64,000 nt of DNA, from the NCBI GenBank assembly GCA_964016885.1, contig OZ024741.1, forward strand, positions 129,828,001-129,892,000, in the 5' to 3' direction. Positions within the stretch are counted from its first letter, which is position 1; each line of letters starts with the position of its first letter. A model generated the notes under the pieces. That model saw only the letters and a list, made by a program, of their open reading frames with translations. It was not told the origin of the DNA and did no database searches. The translations under genes were made by a program, and so were the position numbers. Positions 24,691 through 53,455 of this stretch are shown piece by piece. Source of the stretch: Eledone cirrhosa (taxonomy: Eukaryota).

Positions 24691-24945
24691 AGGAACGAGT
24701 AGGACCCCGACGGCTGAGCTCAAGCCGTTTCGACGGCTAATTCTGGACTCAGAGAAAGAGAGATGGAGACTGAGATAGAGGAGAGAAAGAGACTCTTCGA
24801 GTCCAGAATTAGCCGTCGAAACGGCTTGAGCTCAGCCGTCGGGGTCCTACTCGTTCCTATTACCCACTCTACTACCCTAAGTATTGAGTACGTTGGTGCG
24901 TTATGGTCCATCTGGTTCCTTACCACATTTCCTTCGTTATATATA
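24691..24945 (+). mobile_element. Half-hammerhead fold-back element (family H), copy 1
   Basis: Right arm: tagccgtc GAAA CGGC ttgagctca GCCG TC ggggtcc plus about 100-bp tail to (TA)n; left arm 24691-24750 is its inverted copy; related copies at 44633-44810 and 53256-53455. Confidence 0.85.
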
Positions 24946-25271
24946 TATGTGTGTGTGTGTGTGTGTGTGTGTGTGTGTGTGTGTGTGTGTGTGAGTGTGT
25001 GTGTGTATGTATGTATATACACCTCTTTATCAGGATTCTATGCCTCAGTAATTCCCTTTTAACGCCCACTTTCCATTCTTGCTTCCCAGCCATCTTAAAA
25101 ATATTTCCTCAAACTCCCGAATTCCGTTGTTCCAAAACGTTTCTCTCTCTTTCTCTCCTCTATCTCAGTCTCTCTCTCTCTCTCTCTCTGTCTGTCTCTC
25201 TCTCTCTCTCTCCCTCTCTCTCTCTCTCTCTCTCTCTCTGTGTGTCTCACTCACTTTCTCCGAACTTGCTA

Positions 25272-25303
25272 TTTCCTGAAGATGGACGTATGTCCGAAGC
25301 GTT
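25272..25303 (+). ncRNA. Degenerate minimal hammerhead (GAAA to GAAG)
   Basis: CTGAAGA t GGAC gtat GTCC GAAG cgtt, in an island (25020-25390) ending at (TA)n. Confidence 0.7.
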
Positions 25304-26180
25304 TTAATCCTCATTTATTCAGCTACTTCTGAAACATGAACCTAATAAGACTTTGTATTTGTCTGTGATTGACTCGTGTATTCTTGAACTATATATATAT
25401 ATATATATATATATATATATATATATATATATATATGTGTGTGTGAAGTAAGTCCGTCGGAAAGGTCCAGGAAAAAAGAGTGCTCTATGTGATTTACAGA
25501 GCTTATTAGTTAAATTTTGCCGTCTTGTATCACTGTCAACATAATAATATTTTTTATTTTTTATTTTCTTAATCCTTATTTTTTATTTGCTTATTTGTAT
25601 GTGACGGCCTACTATGATTATTTATTCTTATTTGCGTGTGTGCATATGTATCCTTTTATATGTGAGTACGCGTGCATATGTGTATATATATGTGTGTATG
25701 TATGTGTGTGTATGTATGTATGTGTATGTGTATATATATGTATATATATATATATATGTATATATATATATATATGTATGTGTGTGCATGTATATATATA
25801 TATGTGTGTGTGTGTGTGTTGGTGTGTTTATGTATGGATATGTATATATATATATATATATATATATATGTGTGTATGTGTGTGTATATGTGTCTCTGTG
25901 TATATATATATGTGTATATATGCGTGTATATATGTATATATATATGTGTATATGTGTATATATGTGTATGTATATATATATGTGTATATATGCGTGTATA
26001 TATGTATATATGTATATATGTGTGTATATGTGAGTGTGTGTGCGTGTGTGTGTGTACGTGTGTGTTGTTATATATTCTTATTTATTATTCTCTTCTCCCC
26101 CACCCCTTTTTTTACTCCAGCCTCACTTTCATATCTGTTATATGTTTGTTTTTCAAATCGACTGTCAATAAAGACAATAA

Positions 26181-26232
26181 ATTCTGATGAATGAAAGCAA
26201 TTTTGTTTGCTTTCAAGAAACCACTGGTAAAT
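26181..26232 (+). ncRNA. Type I hammerhead ribozyme
   Basis: ATT CTGATGA a TGAAAGCAA ttttgt TTGCTTTCA a GAAA CCA c TGG TA AAT; 9-bp helix II. Confidence 0.85.
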
Positions 26233-26720
26233 GAAATAATTATCTTATGTTGTTTATTACACAACTAAACATCTATCTATCTATCTATCTATCTATATAT
26301 ATATAATATATATATATATATATATATATATATATATATATATATATATATATATATATATATATATATATGTGTGTATGTATATATATATATATATATA
26401 TACACACACAGGCATATATATATATATATATATATATATATATATATATATATATATATATATATATATATATATGTGTTTCAAAATCATACCTACACAC
26501 ACACACACACACACACACACACATATATATATATATATATATATATATATATATATATATATATATATATATATATATATATATATATATATATATATAT
26601 ATATATATATATATATATATATATATACGTTATTCCGGGTTGAATCGGAGGTAACCACAGTAAGTAAGGTACTCAATACATAGCAGAGTATAACAGTTTT
26701 AATATAGATGAGATTCTACA

Positions 26721-26760
26721 GGACTAGAACTGTTTCATTCATTTGAAATCATCAGGAATC
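26721..26760 (-). ncRNA. Degenerate hammerhead motif
   Basis: Minus strand: gattc CTGATGA t TTCA aa TGAA t GAAA cagt TC tagtc. Confidence 0.55.
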
Positions 26761-26828
26761 GCCAGGGAGCTGGTCTCGATTTTCAGCCCCATGGATTTTA
26801 CCTATTACATTCACGTATTATATTTCGA

Positions 26829-26886
26829 ATACCTGATGATATCACCGGATTCATACGGAACCCGGTCATTGAAATGATCATAGTAT
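26829..26886 (+). ncRNA. Type I hammerhead ribozyme with extended helix II
   Basis: ATAC CTGATGA tatc ACCGG...CCGGT catt GAAA tgatca TA GTAT, followed by AATAAA; palindromic helix III ATGATCAT. Confidence 0.8.
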
Positions 26887-50659: not shown

Positions 50660-50740
50660 ATATGTATCAATGTTTGAATATGTATCGGTATGTCTCTCGG
50701 CTGAAAAGGAGGTCATATAACTGTCCATGCATTAATAAAT

Positions 50741-50787
50741 TGCTCCGAAGAATCCAAACCTCGGTTTGGAGGAAACAGCTGTAAGCA
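50741..50787 (+). ncRNA. Variant hammerhead (CCGAAGA core) in the 3' pLTR
   Basis: Identical to 48732-48778. Confidence 0.82.
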
Positions 50788-51609
50788 CAATAATGTTTTG
50801 AACAGTTCTTTGATTCTTATATTTCATATAACTGCTCTGTAAATCATCTGATGTTTTTACATTGAGCTACTTAACTTACTGGTAATAAGGTAGTAATACA
50901 TTACTGCCTACCACTATTTAGGGTGTGTGTAAAATACTTATAACTGCATAAGGTTTTGAATTTACATAACCATAAATAGTATAACTAATACTATATATAT
51001 ATATATATATATATATATAGTATTAGTTATACTATTTATGGTAGGCAGTAATGTATTACTACCTTATTATATATATATATGTGTGTGTGTATACATACAT
51101 ATATATATATATATATATATATATATATATATGGTCTAACAGGATTTTATTGCATCCATTCTGATTGATATACATACATAGAGAGATAGAAACTGCTTAC
51201 TGTTATTGCTGGAATATTTTATCTCGCAGGGTATTTTTCTTCCTTTGGTTTTTATTCGAAAAGGTAAGAAAATATTCATATTTTTCATAGATTGTATATA
51301 TATATGAAGCATTCTACTAATGAATCTTCATTCTCCATAGAATTTTTGTTACCTCATGAAGTTTATGTTTTATAAATTGGTTATACTTCTACTTTACACA
51401 CGATATCTTAACAATTTTTAAAATATAATTCCTAATATTATTTAATTATACAAATAAAGTCTAAAGTGTGTCTCAAGTCCAGATGCTCACCAGGCCGGTG
51501 CTTAACTCAGATTGTTTGACGACTCTGCCTTCTCAGGAATAAATTGGTGAAGAAGAACAGAAGACGAGATAAAAATAAAATAGGATTTTTTAAACATCGA
51601 ATGGCTATG

Positions 51610-51673
51610 GTGTCCACCAGAATAAAATAGGAATCAAAGGGATCCATAGGTGAAACAAGTTTGAAAACCACTG
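51610..51673. mobile_element. Possible hAT/Charlie-type MITE end
   Basis: tttgaaaaccactg resembles a CAGTGGTTTTCAA terminus. Confidence 0.35.
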
Positions 51674-51974
51674 GTCTAAGCCATAACCAGTTCTTGATTG
51701 AAAATAATTACATTTAAAAAAAAATTTCCCTGAAGCGATGGCAGTTTCTTCAATTATGTTTGCTGAGAAGCACTTCCATTGCAAGTGAACTGTGTCAAAA
51801 TAACATGTACCGACAAGGGACGTCGTATCAACAAATAACGCCTCTACCATCTTTTATCACTACCGAGCAAAAATTATAAATCTAAACTATAATAAAGTAA
51901 GGAGCGAGGGACTGCGTACGGTTTATAATTTTTTTTATCCTATTAGTAAAATAAGTTGGATTACTTTCAATAAA

Positions 51975-52362
51975 TAATTGTTTCTACATTTTGGCACAAG
52001 GCCAGTAAATACACAGTATATTACTGGTACTTTACTTTATCGACCCCGTAAGGATGAAAGGCAAAGTTAACCTCAGCAGGATTTGAACTCATAATGGAAA
52101 AGGCCGTAACTCTTTGCGTCAAAGCATGGCGTCCGACTCTCTACCGATACTGCCAATCCACCCTTTGAATAAATAATTGTTTCTACTTTAGGCACAAGGC
52201 CAGCAATTACCCAATGCATTACTGGTACTTTATTTTATCGACCCCGTAAGGATGAAAGGCAAAGTCAACCTCGGCGGGATTTGAACTCAGATCGTAAAGG
52301 GACGTAACTATGCTGGAAAGCATGGCGTCCGACCTCTACCGATACTGCCAATCTACCGCCTA
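51975..52362 (-). mobile_element. Two tandem SINE family-1 copies
   Basis: Two full reverse-strand units. Confidence 0.88.
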
Positions 52363-52866
52363 CCCTTTGAATAAATAATGAATGAATATTACATAATGTA
52401 TCTACTAAATTTCGTGGCTGTTGATTAAATATATTTTGTTTATTTAAAGATTCACTTCTTTAAAATTTCTGAAATGTCAACACTTCCGGTTGGCCATCGT
52501 TTAAATAAACATATTAATTTTCTCCTAATGCAGTTTATATATAATATCGTCTTTTTTAATGTATCATGGATTACGTTACTGATTAAATAATTTCTATGTA
52601 TTATATTTTGTCAATTACGATTTTATTTGATGTATCATATCGACATGTATATATACCTGCGTATAATATCAATACAGAAACTACACATGCTAGCAGAAAA
52701 CCACCCGAAAGGTGGTTTTTCTGCTAGTGCAACATAATAAAAGAATAAAGTATGGTCCGCAAGGGAACGCGGAAAGACAGATACAACACCACACAGACAA
52801 GAATAAGACAAAAACTATTTTTTATTAAAACTACTGATAATAGTATTAATTTAACATTCAATATTA

Positions 52867-53324
52867 GGCTATTTCTGTCCAGAAATAGCCGTCGAAACAG
52901 CTTGAGCTCTGCCGTCGGGGTTAAACTTTTTCCTATATATATATATTCAATTTAAATTTGTCCCATTATCAATAGTTGAAATTAATAATTCTCTAAGTTC
53001 ATGGGGTTTTAATAGCACCTGCCCATTACCACAACACAAATGAATTGGGGGATTTCTCTGGGGATTTCTAAAGAATCTTTCCTTTAATCACCTAATTATG
53101 TGATTAAAGGAAAGATTCTTTAGAAATCCCCAGAGAAATCCCCCAATTCATTTGTGTTGTGGTAATGGGCAGGTGCTATTAAAACCTCATGAACTTAGAG
53201 AATTATTAATTTCAACTATTGATAATGGGACAAATTTAAATTGAATATATATATATAGGAAAAAGTTTAACCCCGACGGCAGAGCTCAAGCTGTTTCGAC
53301 GGCTATTTCTGGACAGAAATAGCC
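52867..53324. repeat. Near-perfect 458-bp spacerless palindrome
   Basis: Axis at 53095/53096 (taa|tta); few mismatches; both ends lie in the family-H helix II hairpin. Confidence 0.95.
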
Positions 53325-53455
53325 GTCGAAACGGCTTCTGCTCTGCTGTTGGGGTTAAACTTTTTCCTATTACCCACTCTACTACCCTAAGTATTGAGTA
53401 CTCTGGTGCGTTATGGTCCATATGGTTCCTTACCACAACTCCTTCGTTATATATA
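53256..53455 (+). mobile_element. Half-hammerhead fold-back element (family H), copy 3
   Basis: GACGGCTATTTCT ggac AGAAATAGCCGTC GAAA cggc...; palindrome 53256-53369; tail to TATATA. Confidence 0.85.

What the first reader, a model, noticed from the sequence alone, without database searches (positions are those of the whole stretch)
24691..53455. Three independent insertions of one family all fold back at hammerhead helix II, suggesting the ribozyme hairpin self-primes
Seen: family H (24691-24945, 44633-44810, 53256-53455) always keeps helix II 3' strand, GAAA, helix III (CGGC/GCCG), UC and the tail. It always lacks CUGANGA, which is replaced by an inverted copy of the 3' half. At 53311-53314 and near 44763 the symmetry axis is the presumed helix II loop. 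A different family is also truncated inside helix II at 3970-4040, and the 39026 copy breaks inside CUGAUGA. Inference: RT stops after copying helix II, the cDNA hairpin snaps back and primes second-strand synthesis, giving the ribozyme scaffold a second, DNA-level role. Inverted pLTRs are known in PLEs, but I do not know of a report tying the axis to the ribozyme.
Basis: partly seen in the sequence, partly recalled or inferred. Interest (0 to 1): 0.85.

Follow-up and report, generated by a model that had tools for sequence, protein, structure and literature searches.

The report
Palindromic mini Penelope insertions, fixed stop
These three small palindromes are stump-sized insertions of a Penelope-like jumping gene whose copies mostly stop at one fixed spot, which sets the mirror axis, but nothing found shows that a ribozyme hairpin causes the fold-back.

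Summary
The three family-H copies are real, independent, head-to-head palindromic insertions. They have the published Penelope-like (PLE) anatomy: an inverted truncated arm, a tail on one arm only, and (TA)n targets. No CUGANGA lies near them. The helix II explanation is not supported:
- No copy shows a native 5' strand of helix II; that stem is made by the inversion itself.
- Junction letters vary from copy to copy.
- Only about 11-25% of reads crossing the limit are symmetric.
- Many tail-bearing arms start 36-108 nt further 3'.
- Other hammerhead-bearing PLE pieces in the window invert upstream of an intact ribozyme, one after copying through a perfect helix II.
- Hammerhead-free Naiads also invert, and self-priming at PLE junctions is already in print.
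Best reading: two cDNAs run to a fixed template end and are joined head to head. Open lead: the limit falls in TTCGAGTCC, a tRNA T-loop/B-box look-alike, at the A58 position (possible m1A58 arrest).

The parts
24691..24750 (-). H copy 1, inverted arm: from inner 3' end A (joined to (TA)n) to the fixed 5' limit
   Evidence: 60 nt, no internal difference from the direct arm
24751..24798 (.). H copy 1, 48-nt purine-rich spacer; its last letters (TTC) may be native
24796..24804 (+). TTCGAGTCC, tRNA T-loop / Pol III B-box look-alike at the 5' limit
   Evidence: 22 window matches to TTCRANTCC against 2.41 expected; 20 lie in the abundant 190-bp repeat or its relatives
24799..24859 (+). H copy 1, direct arm: GAAA at 24818, putative helix III, UC, G-rich strand, up to end A
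24860..24938 (+). H copy 1, tail (about 79 nt, on this arm only), ending in (TA)n
   Evidence: end B confirmed family-wide
44633..44758 (-). H copy 2, direct arm with tail; subfamily with a shorter stretch before GAAA (GAAA at 44745)
44759..44767 (.). H copy 2, 9-nt imperfectly palindromic junction centred on 44763
44768..44809 (+). H copy 2, inverted arm (3 differences in 41 nt); ends before end A, against another repeat
53255..53314 (-). H copy 3, inverted arm from end A to the 5' limit; reaches 3-4 nt further 5' than the tail-bearing arm
53315..53448 (+). H copy 3, direct arm (GAAA at 53328, end A at 53369) and tail into (TA)n; 5 differences in 55 nt from the inverted arm
52867..53324 (.). 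229-bp-arm palindrome that duplicates about 160 bp of flank, the inverted arm of copy 3 and its junction
   Evidence: 2 differences in 229 nt
38508..39278 (.). Comparator family K: complete type I hammerhead at 38763 (-) in one arm; other arm starts at 39026 inside CUGAUGA; 266 nt apart
18642..18841 (.). Comparator family M: palindrome with the whole hammerhead in both arms; axis 7 nt upstream of the core
3970..4038 (-). M-like piece truncated 11 nt before GAAA, with no inverted copy of itself
47449..50991 (+). Comparator PLE: inverted tail-less arm (47449-47651), pLTR, RT-like ORF 48998-50659, pLTR with tail; CCGAAGA-type hammerhead with a perfect helix II kept whole in all three repeats; junction 123 nt upstream of the core

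Best explanation
Family H is a short (about 150-nt), high-copy, non-coding Penelope-like element that carries what looks like the 3' half of a type I hammerhead and lacks CUGANGA. Shown: two fixed 3' ends (A and B, about 79 nt apart), both joined to (TA)n; a fixed 5' limit 17-22 nt upstream of GAAA; head-to-head arms; junctions that differ between copies. Inferred from published PLE biochemistry: a PLE protein supplied in trans nicks both strands of an AT-rich target and primes cDNA at two sites, A and B. Each cDNA runs to the template's fixed 5' limit or falls off earlier, and the two ends are joined with small losses or fillers. When both reach the limit the result is a palindrome whose axis lies at the limit and looks like a long helix II; when the tail-primed one stops early the junction is asymmetric. 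The cause of the limit is not shown. Candidates are the start of the copied RNA, the 5' edge of a hairpin that folds across GAAA, or arrest at a T-loop-like motif.
For: four runs, 13,817-21,058 records laid per run. Loose ends into (TA)n at A: 1792+1181 reads in X10, 1431+1221 in X11. At B: 1580 and 1795. Loose ends before 53314: 1669 and 1623 reads, whose consensus holds for only four letters and is then heterogeneous (agreement 0.55-0.57, against 0.77-0.91 at the A-end and subfamily clips). Of 15 joints shown (60 in all), 13 run from 53307-53315 to 53351-53423, and 8 of these 13 land inside the tail. Letters between the sides are 1-4 in 11 of 12 rows shown (54 in all). Several junction variants occur (+C, +CT, +7 letters, a same-length variant). 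Symmetric reads are 199 of 1868 (X10) and 232 of 1855 (X11); the upper bound is 22-25%. In copy 3 the tail-less arm reaches further 5' than the tail-bearing arm, so the tail-primed strand cannot have templated it as it stands. PMC11167929: PLE protein cleaves and extends both strands, prefers AT-rich DNA, starts at two sites that bound the tail, is predicted to be a dimer, and does not need ribozyme cleavage in vitro. Twin priming is known for L1 (second-hand passage, PMC2246262).
Against: Both arms share copy-specific letters in 3 of 3 window copies, and copy 1's arms are identical. This fits self-copying at least as well as two primings. Reads of 150 nt and short contigs cannot show whether the arm that reaches the limit ends at A or at B. 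My reference ends its inverted arm at 53314, which favours joints at that place. RAD depth is uneven, and most of the depth step at 53320 probably reflects restriction-site starts (inference). Only the best-supported rows were shown. The tail (about 79 nt) is longer than the 30-40 nt published. The partner protein was not identified. The runs' organism may be a relative rather than the window's own species (best run holds 0.55 of the words).
Confidence: 0.5

Rival explanations
1. Same fixed 5' limit, but one cDNA folds back on itself by 0-5 nt of microhomology and copies itself (generic PLE self-priming). The endonuclease or a second priming then sets end A. No native helix II is needed.
For: Arms share private letters in 3 of 3 copies. 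Joints show 0-5 shared letters. Copies 1 and 2 are symmetric, with the tail-bearing arm reaching at least as far 5'. Self-priming was proposed from junction palindromes in PMC3846280.
Against: In copy 3 the tail-less arm reaches further 5'. A fold-back copy of an A-primed strand cannot carry the tail. The 48-nt spacer in copy 1 and the 961-nt spacer in the 47449 element are not self-templated.
Confidence: 0.22
2. One reading: the master has CUGANGA and a long native helix II; RT copies through it, the cDNA hairpin snaps back and primes the inverted arm.
For: The limit lies where the loop of a long helix II would be, by analogy with family K (36 nt between core and GAAA). A share of reads is symmetric within a few nt (11-25%). 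An intact minority of roughly 100-140 reads per run could hide among the loose ends not shown.
Against: No CTGANGA or native 5' strand was seen. The loop is not constant. 13 of 15 shown joints have a tail-bearing arm that never reached this region. The 47449 PLE copies through a perfect helix II, and family M inverts upstream of its core. Naiads lack canonical hammerheads yet invert. In copies 1 and 2 the stretch before GAAA is predicted to pair with the strand after GAAA (P 0.86 and 0.76) rather than leave helix III (0.13, 0.22), so calling it a helix II strand is uncertain.
Confidence: 0.12
3. Cause of the limit (compatible with the best explanation): the template carries a tRNA-like T-loop, as a tRNA/SINE head fused to a PLE 3' end or as a T-loop capping helix II. 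m1A58 arrests the PLE RT, so nearly all copies end at positions 57-59 and lose everything upstream.
For: Copy 1 reads TTCGAGTCC at the limit. About 2e-4 per named boundary from shuffled counts, chosen after the fact. The following letters fit positions 63-73 in length, with CC at 71-72 (tRNA numbering recalled). Read junctions end at the G57, A58 or G59 equivalents. m1A58 terminates HIV reverse transcription (PMC4033218 passage).
Against: Only copy 1 shows the full motif. Copy 2 has G at the A58 position yet stops in the same region. No T-stem 5' strand or A box was seen. ARAGORN finds nothing. A similar 9-mer occurs by apparent chance at 43097. No match in viral contigs.
Confidence: 0.15
4. 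The palindrome is inherited from one palindromic master and copied whole.
For: Outer end A is the same in copies 1 and 3.
Against: The three window junctions all differ and reads show further variants. Arms carry subfamily letters on both sides. End A is explained by a fixed priming site.
Confidence: 0.05

Closest known systems
Insertion architecture of endonuclease-bearing Penelope-like elements (Arkhipova et al. 2013, PMC3846280; Craig et al. 2021, PMC8557442; Frangieh et al. 2024, PMC11167929)
   Same: Inverted 5'-truncated copy head to head with the direct copy; tail on one arm only; two fixed 3' ends; AT-rich/(TA)n targets; palindromes at the junction, already read as self-priming.
   Different: No ORF; about 150 nt; tail about 79 nt instead of 30-40; the arms stop at one fixed point; the hammerhead core CUGANGA is absent in every copy seen.
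PLE hammerheads (Cervera and De la Pena 2014, PMC4209133)
   Same: GAAA, a helix III with a palindromic loop, UC; that paper also reports close pairs of motifs on opposite strands.
   Different: Only the 3' half is present; helices I and II cannot be formed from native sequence; an alternative hairpin across GAAA is predicted to dominate in copies 1 and 2.
L1 twin priming (Ostertag and Kazazian 2001; seen only as a passage in PMC2246262)
   Same: Two primings from the two sides of the target break give an inverted part joined to a direct part; fits the asymmetric junctions.
   Different: Here the second priming site is fixed (end A) and the arms often overlap fully.
Animal non-LTR retrozymes (bioRxiv 10.64898/2026.07.22.740005)
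   Same: Non-coding, PLE-related, high copy.
   Different: Retrozymes are head-to-tail tandems with complete hammerheads; H is solitary, head to head and lacks the core.

Membership tests
EN+ PLE-type insertion | Inverted 5'-truncated partner, head to head | tested here: met
   3 of 3 copies; joints in reads
EN+ PLE-type insertion | Tail on one arm only, two fixed 3' ends | tested here: met
   Copies 1 and 3; ends A and B in thousands of reads; tail longer than published
EN+ PLE-type insertion | AT-rich or (TA)n target | tested here: met
   Both ends of copies 1 and 3; loose ends; copy 2 abuts other repeats
EN+ PLE-type insertion | RT and GIY-YIG ORF, or an autonomous partner sharing the end | not testable with these tools
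   H has no ORF; no genome is held; the window's RT-like ORF and GIY-YIG piece show no sequence link to H
Type I hammerhead ribozyme | CUGANGA core 5' of helix II | tested here: not met
   absent from the 24 loose-end rows shown
Type I hammerhead ribozyme | GAAA, helix III, UH | tested here: inconclusive
   Sequence present, but such halves arise by chance (6-16 per shuffle) and another fold is preferred
Type I hammerhead ribozyme | Native helices I and II | not testable with these tools
   5' strands are seen only as part of the inverted arm; Rfam gives no hammerhead hit for H or for the complete K motif, so it does not discriminate
Type I hammerhead ribozyme | Self-cleavage | not testable with these tools
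   needs a bench assay
Non-LTR retrozyme | Tandem units, each with a complete hammerhead | tested here: not met
tRNA-derived SINE | B box | tested here: inconclusive
   Core matches in copy 1, one letter off in copy 2, absent in copy 3
tRNA-derived SINE | A box and tRNA-like 5' part | tested here: not met
   Not in any window copy; ARAGORN 0 genes; masters could not be sought

The most novel reading that the evidence does not exclude
Family H is a PLE-mobilised RNA that carries a tRNA-like T-loop in place of, or on top of, the hammerhead's 5' half. m1A58 methylation stops the PLE reverse transcriptase there, so an RNA modification fixes both the 5' end and the inversion axis of thousands of genomic insertions.
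Probability: 0.15. Interest if true: 0.7.

Novelty: new member of a known kind. Interest (0 to 1): 0.3.

Why it matters
How PLEs build their inverted arms and tails is unresolved. A high-copy family with three fixed landmarks (ends A and B, and a 5' limit) is a good natural data set for telling two primings from self-priming. If the limit is set by m1A58, it would be a case of RNA modification written into genome structure and a new kind of PLE parasite. As it stands the architecture is known and the ribozyme link is unsupported.

Tried and rejected
- Pattern scans for other H copies: metagenome contigs gave 1 hit, an unrelated GC-rich coding region; viral contigs gave 0 in 3 scans; genome contigs gave 0, then 1 enterobacterial hit, not read and taken as chance.
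- Rfam: microsatellite-driven miRNA hits over the window (150 of 248 shown); no hammerhead or tRNA hit on the K or H regions.
- No RNA holder listed.
- H as a complete degenerate hammerhead with a mutated core just behind the limit: rejected; no register gives both a core and a helix I (and inspection).
- H as a permuted (type II) hammerhead with the core downstream: no CTGANGA in the tail.
- The depth step at 53320 in RAD reads was not used as evidence, because restriction-site starts probably explain it.
- Earlier-findings look-ups by place, sequence and narrower words were blank.
- Pfam gave no hit for the 553-aa ORF. Its PLE RT nature rests on motifs recognised from memory, its pLTR anatomy and 555 homologues, mostly unnamed.
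Full report
Setting. The window is AT-rich (mostly 29-42% GC up to 54 kb) and full of microsatellites. The best named homologues of its 553-aa RT-like ORF are from Argonauta hians, so the host is probably an octopod (inference). No genome is held. The window has several PLE pieces: a GIY-YIG fragment at 19195-19596, a pLTR-ORF-pLTR unit at 47449-50991, and nine full type I hammerhead candidates under a relaxed descriptor.

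Observation. The three H copies exist as described, in different flanks. Each is an inverted arm followed head to head by a direct arm. In copies 1 and 3 the inverted arm stops at the same inner point (end A, 53369 in copy 3) and joins (TA)n, while the direct arm runs on about 79 nt to end B and (TA)n. Arms differ at 0 of 60, 3 of 41 and 5 of 55 positions, and share copy-specific letters in all three. The junctions all differ: a 48-nt spacer, a 9-nt imperfect palindrome centred on 44763, and a 4-nt loop at 53311-53314. No CTGANGA lies near any copy. The half motif alone is weak evidence for a ribozyme: 24 such halves in the window against 6-16 in 20 shuffles. In copies 1 and 2 the letters before GAAA repeat the letters after the helix III loop, and the direct arm alone is predicted to fold across GAAA (P 0.86, 0.76) rather than form helix III. 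I still think a hammerhead origin likely, because family K has the same layout with a complete core, but it is not shown.

Family-wide evidence. I laid four public runs on 53285-53447: two contig sets of one sample and two RAD read sets of another study, all under the same species label. 13,817-21,058 records were laid per run. Ends A and B are fixed and lead into (TA)n. A third landmark is a 5' limit: 1669 and 1623 reads are clipped before 53314, and their loose consensus holds for four letters and then dissolves. Of 15 joints shown (60 in all), 13 run from 53307-53315 to 53351-53423, one is an artefact of the reference edge and one lies elsewhere. Reads that span a copy-3-like symmetric axis are 199 of 1868 and 232 of 1855, with an upper bound of 22-25%, and they carry several different junctions. 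Caveats: only the best-supported rows were shown (653 loose ends, 45 joints and 121 variants were not); the reference favours joints at 53314; RAD depth is uneven; a small intact class cannot be excluded.

The clustering is real, which is more than three copies could show. But a head-to-head join of two copies that stop at the same point makes a perfect hairpin whatever the RNA looked like, so the 'helix II' is circular evidence until a master with CUGANGA is found, and none was. Snap-back at a native helix predicts one loop and a complete tail-bearing arm; the reads show varied junctions and many tail-bearing arms that start 36-108 nt downstream. In copy 3 the tail-less arm reaches further 5' than the tail-bearing one. 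Within the window, family M inverts 7 nt upstream of an intact core, and the 47449 element inverts 123 nt upstream after copying through a perfect helix II. The 9180-9359 palindrome has its axis about 40 nt upstream of a CTGATGA whose ribozyme status is doubtful. In favour of self-copying: arms share private letters in 3 of 3 copies.

Literature. PMC8557442 (passages) describes the inverted truncated partner, the 30-40-bp tail and (TA)n bias, also in Naiads that lack canonical hammerheads. PMC3846280 (passages and Discussion) reads junction palindromes as self-priming. PMC11167929 (parts 1-2 of 4) shows cleavage and extension of both strands, two start sites bounding the tail, a predicted dimer, and no need for ribozyme cleavage. 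PMC4209133 (parts 1-2 of 4) describes PLE hammerheads and close opposite-strand pairs. The retrozyme preprint was read in part 1 of 5. PMC2246262 and PMC4033218 were seen as passages. Eight searches listed no title or abstract start that ties the axis to helix II or reports a T-loop arrest in PLE copies. Most hits were seen as listings only, supplements were not read, and subscription papers are not covered.

Mechanism. Best (0.5): two primings, at A and B, on the two nicked strands of a (TA)n target; run-off at a fixed template limit; end joining. Rivals: generic fold-back at the same limit (0.22), native helix II snap-back (0.12), palindromic master (0.05). The cause of the limit is open. 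It falls in TTCGAGTCC in copy 1, which matches the B-box core found mostly in the window's abundant 190-bp repeat (22 matches against 2.41 expected), and read junctions end at the positions equivalent to tRNA 57-59 (numbering recalled). That suggests m1A58 arrest (0.15). Against it, copy 2 lacks that A, and no upstream tRNA part was seen. The limit is also the 5' edge of the predicted hairpin across GAAA, and may simply be the start of the copied RNA, as earlier unchecked notes from other genomes suggested for other PLE families.

Verdict. A real feature and a new member of a known kind. Interest 0.3.

Noticed in passing
window 3734-3793/4048-4108, 17574-17733/18091-18248, 38953-39024/39279-39350, 44195-44274/44553-44632, 52867-53324: Five inverted duplications (60-229 bp, 93-99% alike) of flanking DNA sit beside or around hammerhead-bearing PLE pieces, as if the target flank were copied backwards during or after insertion. 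A sixth, 46443-46540/46689-46786 (100%), surrounds a (TA)n run.
   Followed up: partly
window 47449-51069: Young PLE unit: 100%-identical inverted arm, 961-nt spacer, 98%-identical pLTRs, 553-aa RT-like ORF with no endonuclease domain seen, tail about 165 nt, hammerhead with a CCGAAGA core variant, and a further short inverted tail piece at 51039-51069.
   Followed up: partly
window 52867-52890: The 229-bp palindrome ends 10 nt past the H copy-3 junction, so it includes the small hairpin apex. Its arms differ at 2 of 229 positions against 5 of 55 for the H arms: a later event, or H arms from two templates.
   Followed up: partly
window 38508-39278: Family K has a complete type I hammerhead with 7-, 6- and 4-bp helices and a 36-nt helix II region that Rfam does not detect.
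   Followed up: partly
window 57400-58291: The abundant 190-bp SINE-like repeat forms a tandem of 115-bp partial units followed by an inverted pair (palindrome 57941-58285).
   Followed up: no
window 18915-19599: A minimal hammerhead-like motif at 18915 lies about 280 nt upstream of a GIY-YIG fragment (PF01541, E 4.3e-07).
   Followed up: no
window 33338-33930/39946-40536 and 53546-56400: A 593-bp, 97% inverted pair 6 kb apart; and a GC-rich, broken retroelement-like coding region on the - strand.
   Followed up: no
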